A stretch of DNA of 44,356 bases. Origin: a phage. The stretch lies in sequence record QB031381.1. One strand, written 5' to 3'. Shown piece by piece: positions 1 through 44,356 of this stretch (positions are counted from its first letter, which is position 1; every line of letters begins with the position of its first letter). A program made the translations under genes and the position numbers. The notes below the pieces were generated by a model that had not been told where the DNA came from, did not search any database, and saw only the letters and a program-made list of their open reading frames with translations.

Positions 1-1062
1 CAACGCGCTCAAGCGGCCCTAAACAAGCTGATCGCCGACAATGAGCAGTTAATCGCTGCGAGCAAAGAAAGAGCGCTAACGGCAGCCGAAAAGCAGCAGA
101 TGGTGGAATTTGGACGCGTGAAGGAAGTGCGCGAGCAGATCGTCGAAGAAGCCAAATTGCTGGACGCGAAAGAGAGGCAGGTTAAGGCGCACGCGCAGAT
201 CGATGCCTTCGTTAAGAACCAGAACGCCGAACTAAAAGCCACCGCCGCGGGCTATGCGCTTTCCACTCGCGAAGCGGCAAACCTGCGCGAAGAATTGCAG
301 CTAATTGACCGCCTGAAGCGGGTTGGCGCTAACGATACCGATATTGACAAGGCGGTGTCTAAGCTGCGGGAAGTGCAGGAAGCACAGACCGGCGCTAACG
401 CCTCGTTATGGGATGGATTCAGTCGCGGGCTTAAGGATAGCGTGGATGAGATGGGTAACGGATATACGCAGATGGAGTCTCTCACGAAATTCACATTCAG
501 CGCTATGCAGGACACGATGAACGAGTTTTTCGAGACTGGCAAGCTGAACGCAAAGGATATGGTTAAGTCCATCCTGAGCGAATTAATCAAGCTGGCTACC
601 TCGCAGGCGTTCAAGTCCATCGTTAGCGCTTTCGGTGGTGACGGCGGCAAAAACGGATTGTTCGGCGCTATCTTCTCTGGCCTTACTAAGAATGCGGACG
701 GCGGAGCGTACGCAGGAGGCAATCTCGCGGCCTATTCGGGGAAAGTGGTAAGCCAGCCTACCTTTTTCAGTTATGGCGTCCAGGCGTTCGCTAAGGGCGC
801 TGGGTTGATGGGGGAGGCTGGACCCGAGGCCATCATGCCACTGAAGCGCGGGCCGGACGGGAAACTGGGCGTTGCCGCGTCTGGCGCAGGCGGTGGTATG
901 GTCGTGACGACTAACGTTTACACGGGGACCGGTAAGACGGATACCAGTGTTGGCGGGCCGGACCCACGTACCGCGCAGGCGTTCGGCAAGCAAATCACCG
1001 AGGCGGTGAAGGCCGAGATCGTGAAGGCGACGAAACCGGGTGGTGTACTTTACAAACGATGA
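1..1062 (+). CDS. Tail tape measure protein, C-terminal portion (5' partial; reading frame open from base 1)
   Basis: The frame of ORF 100..1062 has no stop back to position 1. It follows the G/G-T chaperone genes and precedes M/L/K/I/J-like genes. It is in phase with the 3'-truncated ORF 42776..44356. Confidence 0.75.
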   Translation, partial: QRAQAALNKLIADNEQLIAASKERALTAAEKQQMVEFGRVKEVREQIVEEAKLLDAKERQVKAHAQIDAFVKNQNAELKATAAGYALSTREAANLREELQLIDRLKRVGANDTDIDKAVSKLREVQEAQTGANASLWDGFSRGLKDSVDEMGNGYTQMESLTKFTFSAMQDTMNEFFETGKLNAKDMVKSILSELIKLATSQAFKSIVSAFGGDGGKNGLFGAIFSGLTKNADGGAYAGGNLAAYSGKVVSQPTFFSYGVQAFAKGAGLMGEAGPEAIMPLKRGPDGKLGVAASGAGGGMVVTTNVYTGTGKTDTSVGGPDPRTAQAFGKQITEAVKAEIVKATKPGGVLYKR

Positions 1063-23187: not shown

Positions 23188-23517
23188 ATGAATATCGACG
23201 ACGCAATCGAAATGTTAACTAAGACTGTTTGCAGTGAGACAAGCCGGTCCTGGGCATATACCGATGCCGTGGGTGCGGTGCTATTTGAAATCGAACGTCT
23301 GCGACTTACCGAAAAAGAATTGCGCGCGAAGCTGGAATTACTCAACGGTACGGCAGCAAGCAAGCTGCAAAAGCACAATGAGGAAATGGAAGAATACAAA
23401 AAACAGGTTATCCGTTTGCGCGATGAGGGGAAGTCATGGGCAATGATCGCTGAGTTGACAGGAATTAACCAAAGCACCGTGCGCTCCTGGGTACGCAATA
23501 ACAAAACTTCTAAGTAA
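23188..23517 (+). CDS. Small DNA-binding protein with C-terminal HTH
   Basis: C-terminal helix-turn-helix-like segment (KSWAMIAELTGINQSTVRSWV); first gene of the rightward operon. Confidence 0.5.
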   Translation: MNIDDAIEMLTKTVCSETSRSWAYTDAVGAVLFEIERLRLTEKELRAKLELLNGTAASKLQKHNEEMEEYKKQVIRLRDEGKSWAMIAELTGINQSTVRSWVRNNKTSK

Positions 23518-23527
23518 GGCCACGGCA

Positions 23528-25792
23528 ATGAGCTTAATTAAATTCGCTGTAACACGACCCGCTAAAAAAGGCGAAAAAGCCAGGGCGGAAAACTTCCAGA
23601 TGACAACTGATGAATTTTTCGAATTTATCAATGACGCGAAAGAAATCTCATCGGTGCACATCAACAAGACCGAGGATAAAGCCGAGTATGCGCGCCGCAA
23701 GCGCAAGGCCGATGGCATCGTGGCATATACCAGTGACGGCCTACGCCGTAAGACCAGCGCGGTGGACCGCTCGATCCTGTTCTTTGATATTGACCGCACC
23801 GATACTCGCACCTTGCGCCGCTGCCGTAAGGCTTTCATCGACGCGGGTCTGGAACACGTATTCCACACCACAACCGGCGACCGTCACCCACTGAAAGGCG
23901 GCACGCGTTGCGCCCGTTTCCTGGTGTTGACGGACAAGCCTGTCCCGGCGGAAGACCTGGGCCGTGTCCAGTATGCGCTATTACACCAACTTGGTCTGTC
24001 AGATGTGGACTTCGACGATTGCACGAAAGACACAAACCGCCTGATGTACCTGCCGCACCAGCAATCGGTTATTAAGTGCCGCTACGGCAAACGTGCCAAT
24101 GTGCGGCGTCTGCTCCGCCTGGCGGACAAGCTGGGGGTGGAGAAAGAGGAAGTACGCCGCGAACTAACCCAGGGCGACGACGAAGTGGCTGACGGCATTC
24201 TTGATTGGTGCTTCCAGGCTGGATTCGAGCCACTATCGTCCGGGCGTGGCTATGAAGTGCCGTGTCCGAACGAACATCTGCACAGCGGCGAAGGGTCGAC
24301 GGCTATCATGGTCAAGGATGGCGAGATCCGTTTCAAGTGTATGCACACCGGAAACGAGTGTTGCTCGGAACTGAACCGACACCAGCACCTGGCGCTTCGT
24401 CTTATCGGGATCCCGGACCACCTGAACGTCGAGCCACACAATATGTCCCGTAAGCAAATCGCCGCCATCCTGCCAGGTCTGGACGACGAGGAAGTCGAAT
24501 CCTTATATGATCACATTGTTGATGCGGTTGGCGACGGCGAAGAATATGGCGTGTGCACCGATGCGGATCTGGATAACGAGCCGGTTGCGCTGTTCAGTAA
24601 GCACGACCCGATCATCGAAGGTCTGATTAACTTCAAATCGACCTGGTATATGGCGGGCGAGTCGAACATCGGCAAGTCCTTCTATGTGCTGGGGCAGATG
24701 GGCGCGGTTGCCGCGGGTATCCCGTTTGGCGGTGCGAAGGTCGTCCAGTCTCATTGCTTCTATTTCGACGCGGAAGGCGGCGAAGCCTCCAACCAGCGCA
24801 AAGAAGCATTGCAGATTAAATACGAGCACGACCTGGATAAGCTGCACATTATCGATCTGCAATCACGCGGCTGGGATATCACCAGCAAATCAGGCTTGCG
24901 CGAAGTTATCAGCTATATCAACCGCACCGCTAACGGCGAGCCGGTCGGCCTGGTGGCGTTCGACTCACTCAACCAGACTGTTGCGTTGCGGTCCGCCGAT
25001 GCTAAACCGTTCGACGAGAACAACGCCAGCGATATGGGTGAAGTGGTCAAAGCGCTGAAAGCCATCGCGGAAAATACAGGCGGCAGTGCGGGCGTCATCC
25101 ACCACCCGGCGAAAGGGGCAAACGGCAGCAGAACGCCACGCGGGTCCGGCGCGCTGCATGGTGCTGTCGATTCTGCTTTCTTCCTGGAACAGCCGGACGA
25201 CAACCAGCCCGGACAATTGAACCTGTACCACGAAAAATCACGTAACGGCATCAAGCAAGCGCCGCGTGGCTTCGTCCTGCTCAAGTGCAAAGTTAAGGTT
25301 GATCTCCGCAAGTCTGAGGCATTCGCGTCGCACCAGTCCACCAGCACCGGGCCAGACTTCGGGGATGTGGTTGCCGGTTGGGACGTCAAGCCAATTGCAT
25401 CCACGCCACGCGACGAGACTCTCTACCTCGTACCGGTCGCCCTGGCACCGTTCGCTATAGAACAAGCGAAGGCCGCAGGAAAAGCCGCAGTTAAGGAAGA
25501 AAACGCCGCCGGTCCGCGCACCGAAAAAGAGAAAGTGCTTTATGCGGCCCTGGAAAAACTGATGGAAGATAACCCGGACCATACTGGTTTCAGTAAATCG
25601 GCAATCGTCCGCCAGGCGGGACTCGCTAAGGGTGGCACTTCGACGAAGGCAATCGACGATATGGTCGAGCGCGGCGTGATTGGTTTCTATACAGATCCGC
25701 ACACCGGGGCCATATATGGGTCGTCGAATTTAGTCATCAAATCGGATATCCCCATCACGCTTTCGGCGACCGATGATGACCTGAAAGATTAA
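23528..25792 (+). CDS. Primase-helicase (AEP-type primase/polymerase N-terminal domain plus P-loop NTPase domain)
   Basis: DxD motif (ILFFDIDRTD), Cys/His zinc-binding region (CPNEHLH...CMHTGNECC), Walker A (GESNIGKS) and a RecA-like segment; 754 aa. Confidence 0.7.
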   Translation: MSLIKFAVTRPAKKGEKARAENFQMTTDEFFEFINDAKEISSVHINKTEDKAEYARRKRKADGIVAYTSDGLRRKTSAVDRSILFFDIDRTDTRTLRRCRKAFIDAGLEHVFHTTTGDRHPLKGGTRCARFLVLTDKPVPAEDLGRVQYALLHQLGLSDVDFDDCTKDTNRLMYLPHQQSVIKCRYGKRANVRRLLRLADKLGVEKEEVRRELTQGDDEVADGILDWCFQAGFEPLSSGRGYEVPCPNEHLHSGEGSTAIMVKDGEIRFKCMHTGNECCSELNRHQHLALRLIGIPDHLNVEPHNMSRKQIAAILPGLDDEEVESLYDHIVDAVGDGEEYGVCTDADLDNEPVALFSKHDPIIEGLINFKSTWYMAGESNIGKSFYVLGQMGAVAAGIPFGGAKVVQSHCFYFDAEGGEASNQRKEALQIKYEHDLDKLHIIDLQSRGWDITSKSGLREVISYINRTANGEPVGLVAFDSLNQTVALRSADAKPFDENNASDMGEVVKALKAIAENTGGSAGVIHHPAKGANGSRTPRGSGALHGAVDSAFFLEQPDDNQPGQLNLYHEKSRNGIKQAPRGFVLLKCKVKVDLRKSEAFASHQSTSTGPDFGDVVAGWDVKPIASTPRDETLYLVPVALAPFAIEQAKAAGKAAVKEENAAGPRTEKEKVLYAALEKLMEDNPDHTGFSKSAIVRQAGLAKGGTSTKAIDDMVERGVIGFYTDPHTGAIYGSSNLVIKSDIPITLSATDDDLKD

Positions 25793-25897
25793 TTTTTGCG
25801 CGCATTGGTTGCCATTTTGAGTGTTTTTAGCTGGTAGCATTGGTTGCCGTGTAGTGTGAATATAGTGCATAGTTATGCAATAAAACTGCATAAAGTA

Positions 25898-26000
25898 AGC
25901 GGGACAAAAAGCGGGACAGACCAGGGGCGGGACAAAGCGGGACAGCACCCCGTCCCACCCCCGGATGACGCGGCCTGGAGGGGAGCGGGACAGGCGGGAC
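25898..26000 (+). repeat. Iteron array: six direct GCGGGACA repeats
   Basis: Copies at 25898, 25910, 25926, 25936, 25984 and 25993 (start positions), plus an imperfect GGGACAG-cacccc-GTCCC dyad. Confidence 0.8.
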
Positions 26001-26005
26001 AAACC

Positions 26006-26054
26006 CCAGTCTTTCAGACTAGACGGGGGTCAACGGCCCCCCTCGTCTGAGACT
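26006..26054. repeat. 49-bp GC-rich imperfect palindrome (copy A)
   Basis: cagtctttcagactagacgggggtcaacggcccccctcgtctgagactg; also present at 42659..42707 with one substitution. Confidence 0.8.
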
Positions 26055-26214
26055 GCATAAAATCCTGGATTGCAAAATACACGGCAGCATGTTGCGGATT
26101 GCGGTCGTCACTGAACTAGGCAACCAATGCGAGTTGCTGAATGGTGGGCGGAAAATGCAGTTTGCAGTCACAGCAGATAGCGATCAACTTTTTCATGCGC
26201 GTGATTAATATTGG

Positions 26215-26270: not shown

Positions 26271-26450
26271 ATGAAAACCGAAATGGTTGATAAGCACGAA
26301 ATCAAGATCGGCGATACGGTAGTCCACAACGGGGAGCTTCGCACTGTGTGCAATCGAGCGTTTAGCATCGATGAATTTATGGGCCTGCTACTTTGGGGCG
26401 ACAGCTATCGTTTAGGGCATAAACTGGTTGAGAGGGTTACGGAACTATGA
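26271..26450 (+). CDS. Hypothetical protein
   Basis: 59 aa; ATG with GGAGGG RBS. The longer listed ORF starts at a TTG inside the promoter. Confidence 0.45.
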   Translation: MKTEMVDKHEIKIGDTVVHNGELRTVCNRAFSIDEFMGLLLWGDSYRLGHKLVERVTEL

Positions 26451-30515: not shown

Positions 30516-30645
30516 CGGCAACCCGTACCCCTCCCAGCCTGCCGATTTGGTGGGCTTTTTTGTGCCTGTTATAATCCCCCTTAGATGGCAGGGCCGTCTC
30601 CTATGTTGCCGATGGTCGGCGCATATGAACAAAAGGGTTTATATC

Positions 30646-40919: not shown

Positions 40920-41645
40920 ATGGGTTATCAACTTCCTAACGGGTCCAGCGTGCAGATTGGGTCCGTATTGGGTGCAGGCATCGCAGTTACGGCAGCGACC
41001 AACGCCGCTGCGTCGATCTCCGACCTTACGCAAGGTTGCGTAATTACCTGCGCGGAGTCTCACGGTCTGGTTGTTGGCGACGTTGTTATGTTCACTAAAA
41101 CCCCGTGGGTCCGTGCGCTGAACCGAGCGTTCATCGTTGGTAAAGTATCCGGGAACGACGTGACGCTGGCGCGCTTCGATACTCAAGACGCCACCAAATA
41201 CCCGACCGGTGCTTTCGGCGTAGGCACACCAGGCGAGGTGGTGAAGGTGTCGAACTTTATCGATTTCCCGTTTATCACTAACGTCGCCGTGTCTGGTGGC
41301 GACCAGCAGACCACCACTTTCCAGCCGTTGCAGGTGAATACCGCGATCAGTCTGAACACCACGAAAAACCCGTTGGTCCAGACCTACACTTTCACCCACG
41401 ACGAAGAAGACCCGATCCGCCCGATTCTGGAAGACCTGGACGACACACAGAAAACCACTGTGATTAAGTTCACCAACCCGGCAGCGGCAAGCGGCAAAGG
41501 TGAGATCCGCATTTACCCGGCTAAGGTGTCTTTCCGGAAGATTCCATCTGCTGAAGTAAACAACGTGGAGACGGTGGAGTCCACCCTCACTATGCAGTCC
41601 GATATGGTTATTTACCGTAAGGACTTGGTCGAGGCGCTGTCGTGA
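40920..41645 (+). CDS. Major tail protein
   Basis: 241 aa, upstream of the G/G-T chaperone pair and followed by a terminator hairpin. Confidence 0.6.
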   Translation: MGYQLPNGSSVQIGSVLGAGIAVTAATNAAASISDLTQGCVITCAESHGLVVGDVVMFTKTPWVRALNRAFIVGKVSGNDVTLARFDTQDATKYPTGAFGVGTPGEVVKVSNFIDFPFITNVAVSGGDQQTTTFQPLQVNTAISLNTTKNPLVQTYTFTHDEEDPIRPILEDLDDTQKTTVIKFTNPAAASGKGEIRIYPAKVSFRKIPSAEVNNVETVESTLTMQSDMVIYRKDLVEALS

Positions 41646-41699: not shown

Positions 41700-42077
41700 T
41701 TGGAGAATTACATAATGGCTAAATCACCACTCTTCACACTTGACCCTAAACCGACCTTTAAGCTGCCGATTGAGATCCCGCGCCCTGGTGAGAACGAACC
41801 GGGCAAAATGACGTTTACCGTGCGCCACCGCCCTATCGACGAATTTTCGCAGACCATGCAGGACACTGAGCGCAAATTGTCGGAGTATGACGACAATGAC
41901 CCGGAAGGATTTAACGTTATGGTCGAGGCCATCATGCACGTCGCTGAAGGCTGGAATTTGCCGGACGAATTTAATGCTGCCAACGTCCGCCGCCTGGTAG
42001 TCAACTACCCGCGCGCGTTCGGCGTGTTCCATACGTCGTACTACCTCGAATTGATGGGGTTGCGTGAAAAAAACTAA
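41700..42077 (+). CDS. Tail assembly chaperone G
   Basis: 125 aa ending at a slippery A AAA AAC heptamer immediately before the stop. Confidence 0.6.
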   Translation: MENYIMAKSPLFTLDPKPTFKLPIEIPRPGENEPGKMTFTVRHRPIDEFSQTMQDTERKLSEYDDNDPEGFNVMVEAIMHVAEGWNLPDEFNAANVRRLVVNYPRAFGVFHTSYYLELMGLREKN

Positions 42078-42391
42078 TTGAGGCGGCGCGGCGCTTTTAT
42101 GGCCCGCCGCCACCCTCCGAAGATTTAGCCGCGAGTTTATGGGGTGCGACACCTGAAGACGTGTGTCCACCTGTTGCGCTGTGGCCCGACAACGCTAAGG
42201 TAGTCGCAGTCTTCACAGATTGCTCCACGCAATGGCGTACCGGATTTGGCGGGGCATACGGCATAGACTACGGCGTACTGGAATGGTTATTTAAGATGCA
42301 CGGCATCGAAAACGCGCAACGTGCGTTTAAAGATATCAAGCTAATGGAACGCGTTGCGCTGGATGAAATGGCGCGGCAGAACCCCGCATAA
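41700..42391 (+). CDS. Tail assembly chaperone G-T fusion via programmed -1 ribosomal frameshift
   Basis: Slippery heptamer A_AAA_AAC at 42068..42074. The -1 frame is open from 42068 through 42391 with no stop and contains ORF 42161..42391. Confidence 0.55.
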
Positions 42392-42395
42392 CGAA

Positions 42396-42653
42396 GCGGG
42401 ACAGGCGGGACGTCCCGTTTTGTCCCGCCACCATTAAACCGCATATATACTCACTTTCATTGCATAAACTAAAAGCGGGACAGGGGTGCTGTCCCAATCT
42501 GTCCCGCCCCTTAAAAGTGAATAGCTATTCTGTTTTCCTGCATAAAACAAACGGGACAGAAAGCGGGACAGAATGAGGCGGGACAAAGCGGGACAGCACC
42601 CCTGTCCCCGTCAGTGCTGCCGCGGGTTTTAGCCGATCGGGACAGGCGGGACA
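42396..42653. repeat. Iteron array: about 12 (G)CGGGACA repeats in both orientations, with GGGACAG-N6-CTGTCCC dyads
   Basis: Copies at 42396, 42405, 42421 (rc), 42475, 42500 (rc), 42552, 42563, 42578, 42588, 42638 and 42646; dyads at 42477..42495 and 42589..42607. Confidence 0.8.
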
Positions 42654-42658
42654 AATCC

Positions 42659-42707
42659 CAGTCTTTCAGACTAGACGGGGGTCAATGGCCCCCCTCGTCT
42701 GAGACTG
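42659..42707. repeat. 49-bp GC-rich imperfect palindrome (copy B)
   Basis: cagtctttcagactagacgggggtcaatggcccccctcgtctgagactg; one substitution relative to copy A. Confidence 0.8.
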
Positions 42708-42775
42708 AATAAGGTTTGTTTTAAATTCGCTGATACAATGATCGACGGCAACTGCATAAAAAGGGGGACTGCATA

Positions 42776-44356
42776 ATGGCAGATCAGGCTGCGGGCATCA
42801 CGCTCAAGGCGGACGTCGCGCAAATTAAAACGGCCAATACTGTGCTGGACACATTTGCGCAGAAATCCGAGAACACAGAACAGAAAGTAAAGAAATTAAA
42901 CGACACACTCGGCAAGTCGAAAAAGGTCACTGGTGACGCCGCGGGCGGAATGGAAAAGTTAGCGACTGAATCGCAGCGCGCCGCCGACGGCATGACGAAA
43001 CAGGAGCGACTCGCCAGCCGATTAGGCATGTCGACCAAAAACCTGGGATTCGCATCGCGGAACGCCGCATTCCAGTTACAGGATATCGCGGTGACGCTTG
43101 AAATGGGTATGCCGGTGCATCGAGTCATGCTTCAGCAGTTACCACAGCTTACTGGGGCGTTTGGCGGGTTGGGGAATACGCTGCGTTATGTCGTCGGCAC
43201 ACTCGGCCCGTTAGGGATCGGCATCGCGGCATTAACGGCAACGATGGGCGTTGGCGTGTCGATTATGTCCCGCGCGGAAAACCAAGTGGCGGCGCTTAAC
43301 AAGACGCTGGCGCTGTCCGGTAATATCTCTGGCCTCACCGCTAACCAGATCCTGGTGCTATCCGAGAACGCCGAGCGGATGGGCGGATCATTCCGCAAGA
43401 CGCGTGACACAATTCAGTCACTGGCGGCGGCTGGTGTGAAAGCGGGTGCGGACTTCGGCGCACTGGCGAAAGTGGTGAATGACTTCTCTAAGGTGTCCAG
43501 CCAGCCGATCGAAGAAGTTGTCGCGGCGGTAGCGAAGCTGTCAACCGACCCGGTAGGCGGCTTGCGCGCACTGGCGGATAAGTATCACGTCGTAAACGAA
43601 GCGCAGATCCAGCAGGTGCAGTCTCTTGTTGATATGGGTCGCGAGACAGACGCAGTTGCGTTGGCTAACAAAACCGCCGCCGCGTCGTTTACCACTATGA
43701 CCAACGATATCAAGGCGAACATGGGCACGCTTGAGCGGTCTATGAACGTCGTCACATCGGCAGCTAAATCTATGTGGGACGCTATCCTGGATGTGGGCCG
43801 CGCGCAGTCCTCCAATGAGTCGGAGATGAAAGCGCGCGAATCACTCCAGCGCATGACAACGGCTTACTATGCCGAGATGAAAGCGGTAAACGCTGCCGGT
43901 GGGGTGATGACCGAAGCGCAGAAAGCTCGTATTAACATGCTTTACAGCGAACTGGTCGCCCAGGAGAAAGTAGTGGCGTCGCTTACCCTTCGTAACCGTG
44001 CGGAGCGAGACAACGCCCGCGCCGCAGACGAATCCGCAAAGGCGAACGAGGAGGCCAACCTCACAGCCCGCGACCGCGCTGCGTTCGAGAAGGAGTACGC
44101 AACCAATGCGAAGAAGCGCGCAGACGAGATCGCCCGCCTCAATTTGCTGAATAAGCGCGGCGTTATTGACGAGAAAGAGCTTGCTGAGGCGGTTAAGCAG
44201 GTAAACGAGCGTTACAAAGACCCGGCCCCGAAGAAGGCCGCGGCTGTTCGCGTGGATGCCGGTATGAAAATGCTGGAAGTCGCACGGAGCGAACTGGCCC
44301 AGCTTCGAGAATCCGGCAAGCAGATCGAAGCCAACGCATCGACGCAGACCCGCACG
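42776..44356 (+). CDS. Tail tape measure protein, N-terminal portion (3' partial; runs off the window end)
   Basis: ATG with AGGGGGA RBS; 527 codons without a stop to the window end; hydrophobic segment and long coiled-coil typical of tape measure proteins; absent from the ORF track because it has no stop. Confidence 0.75.
   Translation, partial: MADQAAGITLKADVAQIKTANTVLDTFAQKSENTEQKVKKLNDTLGKSKKVTGDAAGGMEKLATESQRAADGMTKQERLASRLGMSTKNLGFASRNAAFQLQDIAVTLEMGMPVHRVMLQQLPQLTGAFGGLGNTLRYVVGTLGPLGIGIAALTATMGVGVSIMSRAENQVAALNKTLALSGNISGLTANQILVLSENAERMGGSFRKTRDTIQSLAAAGVKAGADFGALAKVVNDFSKVSSQPIEEVVAAVAKLSTDPVGGLRALADKYHVVNEAQIQQVQSLVDMGRETDAVALANKTAAASFTTMTNDIKANMGTLERSMNVVTSAAKSMWDAILDVGRAQSSNESEMKARESLQRMTTAYYAEMKAVNAAGGVMTEAQKARINMLYSELVAQEKVVASLTLRNRAERDNARAADESAKANEEANLTARDRAAFEKEYATNAKKRADEIARLNLLNKRGVIDEKELAEAVKQVNERYKDPAPKKAAAVRVDAGMKMLEVARSELAQLRESGKQIEANASTQTRT

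What the first reader, a model, noticed from the sequence alone, without database searches (positions are those of the whole stretch)
42392..42775. Iteron locus copy B is inserted between the G-T chaperone and tape measure genes
In lambda-like tail clusters the tape measure gene normally follows G-T directly. Here a 385-bp non-coding block separates them. It holds about 12 GCGGGACA-type repeats in both orientations, two GGGACAG-N6-CTGTCCC dyads, five CTGCATAAA-like boxes and the same 49-bp palindrome as locus A. Two nearly identical elements 16.6 kb apart could also mediate recombination, or mark operon boundaries at which a regulator acts.
Basis: seen in the sequence. Interest (0 to 1): 0.75.

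Follow-up and report, generated by a model that had tools for sequence, protein, structure and literature searches.

The report
Second replication-origin copy inside tail operon
The 384-bp gap between the tail chaperone and tape measure genes of this E. coli phage is a conserved, enlarged duplicate of the repeat-filled DNA that follows the phage's helicase-primase gene and most likely serves as its replication origin, so the phage seems to carry two origin-like sites, one of them inside its tail genes.

Summary
The window is a complete Dhillonvirus (HK578/SO-1-like) genome. Positions 42392-42775 are non-coding and hold 15 GGGAC cores (10 exact CGGGACA), AT-rich spacers, TGCATAAA boxes and a 49-bp hairpin. 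A 200-bp core of this block recurs at 25860-26060, starting about 70 bp after the stop of a 754-aa helicase-primase.

A scan of viral contigs shows that mixed-orientation CGGGACA arrays are a widespread class:
- They sit at the 3' end of replicative helicase/primase genes of several families, or inside lambda-O-like initiator genes.
- Two control heptamers gave 0 and 2 such arrays per 120 hits, against 69.
- A sister genus has a different repeat (GGGGGAGA) at the same place, only one locus, and no gap between T and the tape measure gene.
- The helicase-primase ends in a predicted winged-helix domain.

Locus A is therefore most likely the iteron origin. Locus B is an ancient, enlarged second copy, kept in all 159 Dhillonvirus records that matched. 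The two copies show signs of sequence exchange.

Whether B fires as a second origin, acts as a P4-crr-like partner of A, or mainly shapes tail-operon transcription is untested. This is a new variant of a known kind.

The parts
23528..25792 (+). 754-aa replicative helicase-primase (HK578 gp46, the homologue of SO-1 gp48; called gp48 here): N-terminal primase-like part with a Cys/His motif, AAA_25 RepA-like helicase core (residues 357-531), C-terminal winged helix (about residues 666-737)
25793..26061 (.). Locus A: AT-rich leader with ATTGGTTGC boxes, GTGCATAGTTATGC box, TGCATAAA box (25887-25894), iterons ++++- (25899-25958), GC-rich spacer, iteron pair (25985-26002), 49-bp palindrome (26007-26055), TGCATAAA box (26054-26061)
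   Evidence: conserved in 16 Dhillonvirus contigs
41700..42391 (+). Tail assembly chaperone G (41700-42077, Phage_TAC_4) and its -1 frameshift extension T (DUF1799 frame, ends 42391)
   Evidence: Pfam; slippery GAAAAAAA run at 42066-42073 and frame relation read from the sequence
42396..42429 (.). B iteron block 1, orientation ++-- (GCGGGACAGGCGGGAC/GTCCCGTTTTGTCCCGCC). It contains the small hairpin plus TTTT that HK578's annotators called a terminator.
   Evidence: conservation 0.96
42430..42472 (.). AT-rich spacer 1 (70% AT against 45% genome) with a CCGCATATA and a TTGCATAAA box, flanked by divergent iterons
42475..42508 (.). B iteron block 2, orientation +-- (includes the dyad GGGACAG-N5-CTGTCCC)
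42509..42550 (.). AT-rich spacer 2 (69% AT) with the GTGAATAGCTATTC palindromic box (42517-42530) and a CTGCATAAA box (42538-42546). The core shared with locus A starts here.
42552..42609 (.). B iteron block 3, orientation ++++- (four direct GCGGGACA copies at spacings 12, 15 and 10, then CTGTCCCC)
   Evidence: invariant cores in 31 A/B copies
42638..42654 (.). Iteron pair CGGGACAGGCGGGACAA next to the palindrome. It is polymorphic (AGG.../AGC...GCAC) in both loci.
42659..42707 (.). 49-bp imperfect palindrome (hairpin or cruciform). The arms are invariant and the loop is free to vary.
   Evidence: an exact left-arm scan finds it only in Dhillonvirus contigs, two copies each
42708..42775 (+). 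AT-rich leader of the tape measure gene: extended -10-like TGATACAAT (42731-42739), CTGCATAAA (42752-42760), RBS AAAGGGGGA; the ATG is at 42776

Best explanation
Locus B is a second, enlarged copy of the phage's iteron-type replication origin module.

Proposed mechanism:
1. The short GCGGGACA repeats are binding sites for the C-terminal winged-helix domain of the phage's own helicase-primase (gp48, 23528-25792). This would be a self-loading initiator helicase, as in SaPI Rep, P4 alpha or pRN1 ORF904.
2. Locus A, about 70-110 bp after the gp48 stop codon, is the canonical origin position.
3. B arose by an ancient duplication of the A core (GTGAATAG box, TGCATAAA box, ++++- iterons, spacer, ++ iterons, 49-bp hairpin) into the T/tape-measure junction.
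4. B then gained two further iteron dyads that bracket 42-43-bp AT-rich segments, which are the likely melting sites.
5. In infection, gp48 multimers would bind both loci. B would then work either as an independent second origin or as a cis partner of A, as crr does for P4 ori.
6. Because B interrupts the tail operon, it also carries its own promoter-like element for the tape measure gene.

Shown here: the anatomy, the conservation, the association of this repeat class with replication-initiator genes, the switch of repeat sequence in a sister genus, and the winged-helix fold.

Inferred: that gp48 binds these repeats, that DNA melts there, and that either locus fires.
For: 1. Association with the helicase gene. 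In 120 viral contigs picked only for three close CGGGACA copies, the one window protein that recurs is gp48. In 34 loci its homologue's stop codon lies -47 to +56 bp from the array start. The array is always downstream and never upstream.

2. Other initiator families. Other arrays abut DUF5906/PriCT_2/Prim-Pol, DUF3987/PriCT_1, VapE, Toprim/Zn-ribbon and DnaB genes. Others lie inside lambda-O-like/DnaD-like initiator ORFs.

3. Controls.
- Mixed-orientation arrays: 69/120 for CGGGACA and 67/120 for CGTGACA, against 0/120 and 2/120 for two composition-matched heptamers.
- Arrays at an AAA_25 helicase stop: 34 and 14, against 1 and 0.

4. Specificity switch. GRNsp27 (helicase-primase 44% identical) has five GGGGGAGA boxes, all within 160 bp after the gene. 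Rhizobium phage 16-3 has at least 17 GCGTGACA boxes after p101. More distant AAA_25 helicases have other short repeats downstream.

6. Architecture of B. Two 70%-AT spacers are flanked by divergent iterons. This matches the published SaPI ori description (PMC9371898). A stem-loop origin downstream of a primase-helicase gene is known for pRN1 (PMC4234260).

7. Selection. In B, iteron cores score 0.967, TGCATAAA boxes 0.98 and palindrome arms 0.99, against 0.86 for other B positions and 0.88-0.93 for the flanking coding sequence. B is present in all 159 matching phage records and in a clade with only 68% gp48 identity.
Against: - There are no binding, melting or replication data for any Dhillonvirus.
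- B is 16.6 kb from the initiator gene, whereas the rule elsewhere is adjacency. Only a few other contigs show a second array (L100/L101, L062, L103, L132).
- The C-terminal domain of gp48 shows no profile similarity to that of the main metagenomic helicase group that shares the same heptamer (hhalign probability 0.3%). The binder could therefore be another factor.
- AT-rich gaps flanked by divergent iterons are not general in the other arrays (1 of 34).
- Locus A has iterons on only one side of its AT-rich stretch.
- GC skew follows transcription and gives no origin signal.
- The position inside an operon, the hairpins and the promoter-like box fit a transcriptional role equally well.
Confidence: 0.6

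Rival explanations
1. B is mainly a transcription boundary inside the late operon. Hairpins formed by inverted repeats and the 49-bp palindrome stop or pause transcripts coming from the head and G-T genes. A promoter in the AT-rich leader restarts transcription of the tape measure and distal tail genes. The repeats bind a regulator (gp48 or another protein) that times this.
For: - HK578's annotators marked a rho-independent terminator at the first iteron dyad.
- The GGGAC/GTCCC dyads are hairpins by construction.
- The palindrome folds strongly as RNA, -37.5 kcal/mol with flanks, z = -3.6.
- An extended -10-like TGATACAAT at 42731-42739 is conserved. A second TGNTAYAAT lies just upstream of terS at 30567.
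- Locus A also sits at an operon junction, between early genes and small/lysis genes, next to a TATATT promoter-like site.
Against: - The palindrome has no adjacent T-run and was not called as a terminator on the + strand. The terminator-like hits in B are on the minus strand.
- TGNTAYAAT occurs 3 times against 1.8 expected, which is not significant. The box is absent from the m050407 version of B.
- This reading does not explain why the same heptamer arrays track replication-initiator genes in unrelated phages.
- It does not explain why a sister genus manages without any gap.
Confidence: 0.2
2. The repeats are bound not by gp48 but by another factor. Candidates are the 109-aa HTH protein encoded just upstream of gp48 (23188-23517) or a host protein. 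The arrays would then serve DNA organisation, control of replication timing or titration rather than origin firing.
For: - The same heptamer lies next to initiators whose C-terminal domains are not detectably related.
- The HTH_23/sigma-70 region 4-like gene lies in the same early operon.
Against: - No homologue of the 109-aa protein was found in the 120 CGGGACA loci. No other shared neighbour family emerged from clustering.
- The GC content of the contigs spans 0.34-0.71, which argues against a single host factor.
- Iteron sequence changes along with the helicase-primase in GRNsp27.
Confidence: 0.1
3. B is a functionless or selfish duplicate of the origin region. It persists because it is harmless and is refreshed by gene conversion from A. 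Its main effect is as a recombination hotspot.
For: - The iteron-pair variant (AGG.../AGC...GCAC) and loop variants are shared between A and B in different combinations.
- A and B of m050407, and of m003101, share derived states.
Against: - B is kept in every one of 159 matching records and in a clade with 68% gp48 identity.
- A and B cluster by locus, not by genome: A-A 0.855 and B-B 0.877 against A-B 0.77-0.79.
- B-specific parts (blocks 1-2, spacer 42610-42636) are themselves conserved at 0.85-0.96.
- Direct repeats 16.6 kb apart would only generate lethal deletions.
Confidence: 0.07
4. B encodes a structured non-coding RNA, for example a protein sponge built of GGA-containing repeats or a cis-acting antitermination element like HK022 put.
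For: - Both copies lie on the strand transcribed with their operons.
- There are many GGA-containing repeats and hairpins.
Against: - No Rfam family matches anywhere in the window.
- Repeats occur in both orientations and, in other phages, on either strand relative to the neighbouring genes.
- The link to initiator genes and to O-like ORFs points to DNA sites.
- Only one compensatory change was seen in the hairpin.
Confidence: 0.03

Closest known systems
SaPI Rep / PriRep self-loading helicases and their ori (Staphylococcus aureus pathogenicity islands)
   Same: As described in PMC9371898, the initiator helicase has a C-terminal winged-helix domain. Six to twelve 5-6-nt iterons lie immediately downstream of its ORF. 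An AT-rich centre has iterons on each side pointing in opposite directions. Locus A has the position. Locus B has the AT-rich segments bracketed by divergent iterons. gp48 has a predicted C-terminal winged helix.
   Different: gp48 has an AAA_25 RepA/DnaB-like core fused to a primase-like N-terminus. No sequence relationship to Rep was found in PDB or Pfam searches. The iteron is 7-9 nt. There are two loci, one 16.6 kb from the gene. Each carries a conserved 49-bp hairpin and TGCATAAA boxes.
Satellite phage P4: alpha protein with ori and crr (from my own knowledge of Flensburg & Calendar 1987 and Ziegelin et al. 1993; not retrievable in the paper library)
   Same: One multifunctional primase-helicase-origin-binding protein. 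The same short repeats occur in direct and inverted orientation in two separate loci kilobases apart, one next to the 3' end of the initiator gene.
   Different: P4 alpha has a Toprim primase and an SF3 helicase, and its iteron is TGTTCACC. A cis requirement for crr has been shown experimentally for P4, whereas nothing has been tested here. B lies within a structural operon.
pRN1 ORF904 (prim-pol, helicase, winged helix) and its downstream stem-loop origin
   Same: The origin lies just downstream of the replication protein gene and needs a conserved stem-loop. It still works when moved elsewhere on the replicon. The authors noted similar arrangements in bacteriophages (PMC4234260). This compares with the invariant-arm 49-bp hairpin at both loci.
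   Different: pRN1 is an archaeal plasmid with a ~100-nt stem-loop and no iteron array reported. It has a single locus.
Lambda O protein and ori-lambda
   Same: An initiator binds repeated sites next to an AT-rich region. In a 12-locus cluster of CGGGACA contigs the array lies inside an O-like/DnaD-like initiator ORF, as ori-lambda lies inside O.
   Different: The window has no O-like gene. Lambda iterons are ~19-bp inverted repeats, four in a row, and lambda has a single locus.
Plasmid Rep-iteron origins with extra iteron clusters for handcuffing (P1 incA, RK2, F incC; from my own knowledge)
   Same: A second cluster of the same iterons lies away from the origin and binds the initiator, which can pair the two loci.
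   Different: Plasmid iterons are 17-22 bp at regular, helically phased spacing. Here the sites are 7-9 bp at irregular 8-16-bp spacing. Copy-number control has no obvious role in a virulent phage.

Membership tests
Iteron origin of a self-loading initiator helicase (SaPI Rep / P4 alpha / pRN1 type) | Multiple copies of a short (5-9 nt) repeat in both orientations, far above chance | tested here: met
   15 GGGAC cores in 384 bp against 1.67 per kb window-wide; CGGGACA occurs 26 times against 6.3 expected
Iteron origin of a self-loading initiator helicase (SaPI Rep / P4 alpha / pRN1 type) | Array lies immediately downstream of the initiator-helicase ORF | tested here: not met
   Met for locus A, whose first iteron is 108 bp after the gp48 stop, and for 34 metagenomic homologues. 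Not met for locus B, the finding itself, which lies 16.6 kb away between T and the tape measure gene.
Iteron origin of a self-loading initiator helicase (SaPI Rep / P4 alpha / pRN1 type) | AT-rich segment bracketed by iterons pointing in opposite directions | tested here: met
   In B, 42430-42472 (70% AT) and 42509-42550 (69% AT) are each flanked by - on the left and + on the right. Locus A has iterons on one side only.
Iteron origin of a self-loading initiator helicase (SaPI Rep / P4 alpha / pRN1 type) | Initiator carries a winged-helix DNA-binding domain | tested here: met
Iteron origin of a self-loading initiator helicase (SaPI Rep / P4 alpha / pRN1 type) | Iteron sequence changes with the initiator in related elements | tested here: met
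   GGGGGAGA in GRNsp27, 44% identity; GCGTGACA in phage 16-3; other motifs after distant AAA_25 helicases
Iteron origin of a self-loading initiator helicase (SaPI Rep / P4 alpha / pRN1 type) | Specific binding, melting and initiation of replication at the site | not testable with these tools
   Needs EMSA or footprinting, marker-frequency analysis and ori-cloning assays
P4-type bipartite origin (ori + crr) | Two separated clusters of the same iterons on one replicon | tested here: met
   Loci A and B are 16,652 bp apart. Both are present in every Dhillonvirus contig examined.
P4-type bipartite origin (ori + crr) | Initiator homologous to P4 alpha (Toprim primase + SF3 helicase + C-terminal OBD) | tested here: not met
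   The gp48 core is AAA_25/RepA-like. The only PDB sequence hit is RSF1010 RepA at E = 0.54.
P4-type bipartite origin (ori + crr) | Both loci required in cis for replication | not testable with these tools
   Needs deletion analysis
Intrinsic (rho-independent) terminator | GC-rich stem-loop directly followed by a T-run on the transcribed strand | tested here: not met
   The 49-bp palindrome is followed by AATAAGG (B) or CATAAAA (A), and the scan reports no + strand site in B. The 4-bp-stem hairpin CGGGACGTCCCG + TTTT annotated in HK578 is marginal.
Plasmid Rep iterons (RepA/RepE/pi/TrfA type) | 17-22-bp repeats at regular, helically phased spacing | tested here: not met
   The unit is 7-9 bp. 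Start-to-start spacings are 8, 9, 10, 12, 15 and 16 bp.
Any curated RNA family (Rfam 15) | Covariance-model match at gathering score | tested here: not met
   0 matches in the whole window

The most novel reading that the evidence does not exclude
CG(G/T)GACA may be a common 'origin word' of tailed phages. The same heptamer, in mixed-orientation arrays, marks the origins of replication modules built on at least six different initiator architectures:
- AAA_25 helicase-primases
- DUF5906 (SF3) / Prim-Pol proteins
- DUF3987/PriCT proteins
- VapE proteins
- Toprim/Zn-ribbon primase-helicases and DnaB
- lambda-O-like initiators with the array inside the gene

The DNA-binding domains of these initiators are not detectably related. 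This implies either a mobile origin-plus-reader cassette, convergence on one favoured site, or an unrecognised shared factor. In this reading, Dhillonviruses have gone a step further and run a bipartite origin, in which A and B must both be bound and perhaps looped together for replication.
Probability: 0.3. Interest if true: 0.75.

Novelty: new variant of a known kind. Interest (0 to 1): 0.6.

Why it matters
Dhillonviruses are common coliphages used in phage collections, therapy candidates and engineering, yet no origin of replication has been described for them. I found none in the 68 papers of the library that mention the genus, and the phage records I inspected annotate this region at most as 'terminator', 'repeat_region' or small hypothetical ORFs.

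If the reading holds, it has four consequences:
- It gives two precise candidate origins and names their likely reader protein. Replication of this genus then becomes directly testable by EMSA, marker-frequency analysis and ori cloning.
- It warns engineers that the T/tape-measure gap is not a neutral insertion site.
- It offers a natural virulent-phage counterpart to the P4 ori/crr puzzle.
- The by-product, that CGGGACA and CGTGACA arrays flag initiator genes across very different phage contigs, could become a simple sequence rule for predicting phage origins. It also raises the question of why one short word is reused by unrelated initiators.

Tried and rejected
- **Rfam scan of the whole window:** no hit, so no known RNA family.
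- **GC and AT skew:** they follow gene orientation, with the minimum at the divergent early promoters near 22-23 kb. They say nothing about origins.
- **Packaging site:** the 5' cos sequence reported for Dhillonvirus EE09 (ATCTTAAGGG; PMC10673088) has no exact match anywhere in the window, and none of its three one-mismatch hits is in B. terS is 12 kb away. Four assemblies that break inside B, three at the palindrome centre (L016), are best explained by repeat or hairpin assembly artefacts.
- **Protelomerase-type target:** the palindrome is imperfect and present twice, so I rejected this.
- **Coding potential of B:** stop-free stretches differ in strand and frame between genomes. The small 'hypothetical proteins' annotated in some records are probably spurious.
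- **CTGCATAAA as a general late promoter:** rejected, because all exact copies are confined to the two loci.
- **Sigma-70 scan of B:** no canonical promoter.
- **Sequence search of gp48 against PDB:** only a marginal RepA hit.
- **Profile comparison of the gp48 C-terminus with the C-termini of the metagenomic helicases:** negative. An HMM of those C-termini does not hit gp48.
- **A shared accessory gene near all arrays:** none was found.
- **Covariation in the palindrome:** the arms are almost invariant, with one compensatory pair only, which is too little for statistics.
- **Literature on P4 ori/crr, GGGACA iterons and Dhillonvirus origins:** nothing usable in the library.
Full report
**What the window is.** The window is 92-99% identical to many Dhillonvirus genomes (HK578, SSL-2009a, JL1, YD-2008.s and others; 98.7% to vB_Eco_Lzu_P1). 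Its length (44,356 bp) and gene order match a whole genome opened inside the tape measure gene. That gene starts at 42776, runs off the end, and continues in frame to 1062; 1581 + 1062 = 2643 nt, the HK578 gene length.

Upstream of the finding lie the major tail protein (40920-41645), chaperone G (41700-42077, Phage_TAC_4) and its frameshift extension T (DUF1799 frame, stop at 42389-42391).

**Check of the observation.**
- CGGGACA occurs 26 times in the window against 6.3 +/- 2.4 in shuffles. Ten copies lie at 42397-42653 and six at 25900-26001.
- With the 5-nt core, B holds 15 sites (10 +, 5 -) and A holds 7, against 1.67 per kb overall.
- The 49-bp palindrome has two copies, differing by one loop base.
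- All four exact CTGCATAAA copies lie in the two loci.
- A and B align over a ~200-bp core at about 80% identity, and they are nearly identical from the last iteron pair through the palindrome.
- Small corrections: the dyads are GGGACAG-N5-CTGTCCC, and B has four rather than five CTGCATAAA-like boxes at one mismatch or fewer.
- The block is non-coding. Stop-free stretches change strand and frame among 15 genomes and have no start codons.

**Anatomy of B.**
1. Iteron block 1, orientation ++-- (42396-42429).
2. AT-rich spacer, 70% AT (42430-42472), ending in TTGCATAAA.
3. Iteron block 2, orientation +-- (42475-42508).
4. AT-rich spacer, 69% AT (42509-42550), with a GTGAATAGCTATTC box and CTGCATAAA.
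5. Iteron block 3, orientation ++++- (42552-42609).
6. A 27-bp GC-rich spacer.
7. An iteron pair (42638-42654).
8. The palindrome (42659-42707).
9. An AT-rich leader with TGATACAAT (42731-42739), CTGCATAAA, the RBS and the ATG.

Locus A has items 4 to 8 only. They are preceded by an AT-rich stretch carrying a different motif, ATTGGTTGC.

**The key lead: what travels with this repeat elsewhere.**

Most hits are arrays of 5-24 copies within 400 bp, in both orientations, in contigs of 34-71% GC.

I compared every window ORF with these loci by tblastn. Only one protein recurs: the 754-aa product of 23528-25792, the gene that ends just before locus A.
- With phmmer, 34 loci have a homologue whose stop codon lies -47 to +56 bp from the first repeat. 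The array is downstream in all 34 and upstream in none.
- By single-linkage clustering, 46 of 86 irregular arrays have a helicase of this cluster.

Large ORFs that end at the remaining arrays are also replication proteins:
- DUF5906 with PriCT_2 and Prim-Pol
- DUF3987 with PriCT_1
- VapE
- Toprim_3 with Zn_Ribbon_Prim
- DnaB
- further AAA_25 proteins

In a 12-locus cluster the array lies inside a 235-335-aa ORF. The four members I scanned against PHROGs hit 'replication initiation O-like' and 'DnaD-like helicase loader' families. This is the ori-lambda arrangement.

**Controls.** Two composition-matched heptamers, scanned the same way, also filled 120 rows, but with regular tandem repeats.

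| Heptamer | Mixed-orientation arrays (of 120) | Arrays starting at an AAA_25 helicase stop |
|---|---|---|
| CGGGACA | 69 | 34 |
| CGTGACA (one-base variant) | 67 | 14 |
| CGAGGCA (control) | 0 | 1 |
| GACGGCA (control) | 2 | 0 |

All four scans were truncated, so these are proportions of arbitrary subsets, not totals.

**The protein.**
- gp48 has an AAA_25 (RepA/DnaB-like) core (Pfam E = 1.3e-19).
- It belongs to PHROG 3228, 'replicative helicase-primase'.
- An AlphaFold model of its last 135 residues, built with 39 homologues, gives a confident H-H-H-strand-wing-strand winged helix (pLDDT 81-92).

This is the architecture described for SaPI Rep proteins. Those have a C-terminal winged helix that reads 5-6-nt iterons placed immediately downstream of the rep ORF, with an AT-rich centre and iterons pointing in opposite directions on each side (PMC9371898). 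For pRN1, the origin is a stem-loop just downstream of the primase-helicase gene and still works when displaced. The authors saw similar arrangements in phages (PMC4234260).

**Specificity switching.**
- Salmonella phage GRNsp27 (Guernseyvirinae) has a helicase-primase 44% identical to gp48. All five of its GGGGGAGA boxes lie within 160 bp after the gene, next to two GTGAATAGTTATTC boxes, and there are none elsewhere.
- Rhizobium phage 16-3 has at least 17 GCGTGACA/TGTCACGC boxes after p101.
- More distant AAA_25 helicases are followed by other short repeats, for example ATGGAAA x9 and ACAAAGG x6.

A repeat that changes with the neighbouring initiator is what iterons do.

**Is B an insertion, and how old is it?**
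- In GRNsp27 the T frame runs into the tape measure start with no gap.
- In a contig with 58% major-tail-protein identity, T is followed by a terminator and minus-strand ORFs, with no GGGAC array.
- Within Dhillonviruses, B is present in all 159 matching records, 151 of them at 80% coverage or more, and in all 15 IMG/VR contigs examined.
- A clade with only 68% gp48 and 73% major-tail-protein identity (m050407) also has B in front of the tape measure gene. There an extra minus-strand gene lies between T and B.
- The palindrome's left arm occurs only in Dhillonvirus contigs, generally twice per contig.

So B is an old, fixed feature of this lineage and is absent from its nearest relatives.

**Selection (15 genomes).**

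| Element | Mean majority frequency |
|---|---|
| Palindrome arms | 0.99 |
| Palindrome loop | 0.85 |
| TGCATAAA boxes | 0.98 |
| Iteron cores | 0.967 |
| Other positions in 42392-42654 | 0.861 |
| Flanking coding sequence | 0.88-0.93 |

The hairpin's central stem is kept in all variants. In m050407 B, an A:T pair is replaced by G:C on both arms.

**Exchange between the copies.**
- Overall, A copies cluster with A and B copies with B. Mean identity is 0.855 for A-A and 0.877 for B-B, against 0.77-0.79 for A-B. The duplication therefore predates the radiation.
- A multi-base polymorphism of the iteron pair occurs in both loci, in different combinations among genomes: CGGGACAGGCGGGACAAA... against CGGGACAGCGGGACAGCAC.... 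Loop variants such as TCTGGCA also appear in A of one phage and B of another.
- In m050407 and m003101, A and B share derived states not seen in the main clade: GGGACGTCCCGGCGTCCCC, and the sequence after the palindrome.

This is best read as occasional gene conversion.

**Transcription.**
- HK578's annotators placed a rho-independent terminator on the first iteron dyad.
- My scan finds terminator-like sites in B only on the minus strand, and none at the palindrome, which lacks a T-run.
- TGATACAAT at 42731-42739 fits an extended -10. It is conserved in the main clade (0.93) but not in m050407.
- The pattern occurs three times in the window against 1.8 expected. One further copy lies just before terS.

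A boundary function is plausible as a consequence of placing 384 bp of protein-bound, hairpin-rich DNA inside an operon. It does not explain the cross-phage association with initiator genes.

**What remains unexplained.**
- The C-termini of the main metagenomic helicase group share a W..FY...DTKKKAFxRA..L..G motif. Neither an HMM of it nor hhalign (probability 0.3%) links it to gp48. Initiators of other families have yet other C-termini. Why one heptamer, and its one-base variant, is reused by such different proteins is open.
- Second arrays away from the initiator gene are rare elsewhere. One contig has two arrays 11.5 kb apart (L100/L101), and a few have arrays 1-3.5 kb apart.
- AT-rich gaps bracketed by divergent iterons, clear in B, are found in only 1 of 34 helicase-adjacent arrays. 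Those usually read +++++ (about 36 bp) ---.

**Verdict.** The most likely meaning is that A is the origin next to the helicase-primase gene, and B is an ancient, enlarged, selectively maintained second copy in the tail operon. It would be bound by the same protein and act in replication, as a second origin or as a crr-like partner (confidence 0.6). A secondary or alternative role is at a transcription boundary (0.2). Nothing here has been tested biochemically.

Noticed in passing
window 8491, 11606, 13510, 13527, 16469, 22990, 25804, 25839, 26120, 26210, 26241, 26950, 36797, 44099: ATTGGTTGC has 14 exact copies. At one mismatch or fewer there are 25 against 12.5 expected, and 0/100 shuffles reach that. 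The exact copies are scattered across the genome on both strands; at least six lie in non-coding DNA (22990 in the divergent early-promoter region and five around locus A). The copies at 26210 and 26241 bracket a TTGCAT-17-TATATT promoter-like site before the gene at 26271. It is probably a phage promoter or operator element distinct from the iterons. It also occurs upstream of B in the distant contig L384 (4925-4990).
   Followed up: partly
L339 (Rhizobium phage 16-3) 2556-2960: At least 17 GCGTGACA/TGTCACGC boxes in both orientations follow the p101 AAA_25 primase/helicase gene, ending in a G-rich hairpin. This is a one-base variant of the Dhillonvirus iteron. A scan for CGTGACA x3 gave 67/120 mixed-orientation arrays, 14 of them at a helicase stop codon.
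   Followed up: partly
L338 (Salmonella phage GRNsp27) 18040-18230: Five GGGGGAGA boxes and two GTGAATAGTTATTC boxes lie directly after the helicase-primase gene. This is a likely origin of Cornellvirus-type phages, and it is a single locus.
   Followed up: partly
window 42517-42530 and 25865-25878; L338 18068 and 18090: A palindromic GTGAATAGYTATTC box is shared by both Dhillonvirus loci and the GRNsp27 array, although the iterons differ. It may be a second, more conserved binding site for a host factor or a conserved part of the initiator.
   Followed up: no
L043, L047, L062, L065 and 8 further loci: CGGGACA arrays lie inside 235-335-aa ORFs; the four I scanned match lambda-O-like/DnaD-like replication initiators, the ori-lambda arrangement with a different iteron.
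   Followed up: partly
L100 1291-1336 and L101 10033-10165 (one 37.9-kb contig): This is an independent case of two CGGGACA arrays 11.5 kb apart. One abuts an AAA_25 helicase gene. The other lies in an intergenic region flanked by terminator-like hairpins.
   Followed up: partly
window 1-1062 and 42776-44356: The window is a complete, circularly permuted genome opened inside the tape measure gene. The first ORF (to 1062) continues the frame that runs off the end.
   Followed up: yes
window 42602-42683 (records UAE_MI-01, CHD5UKE2, Kente; contig of L016): Four public assemblies begin or end inside locus B, three of them at the centre of the 49-bp palindrome. This is probably an assembly artefact of the A/B repeat or hairpin, but physical ends were not excluded experimentally.
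   Followed up: partly
window 23188-23517: A 109-aa HTH_23/sigma-70 region 4-like protein is encoded at the head of the early rightward operon, just upstream of the helicase-primase. PHROG labels its family 'transposase'. It is a candidate reader of the ATTGGTTGC boxes.
   Followed up: no
L384 4615-4857 (contig m050407): In the divergent clade an extra minus-strand gene sits between T and locus B. In L387 minus-strand ORFs follow T. The T/tape-measure junction looks like a recurrent insertion point in this lineage.
   Followed up: no
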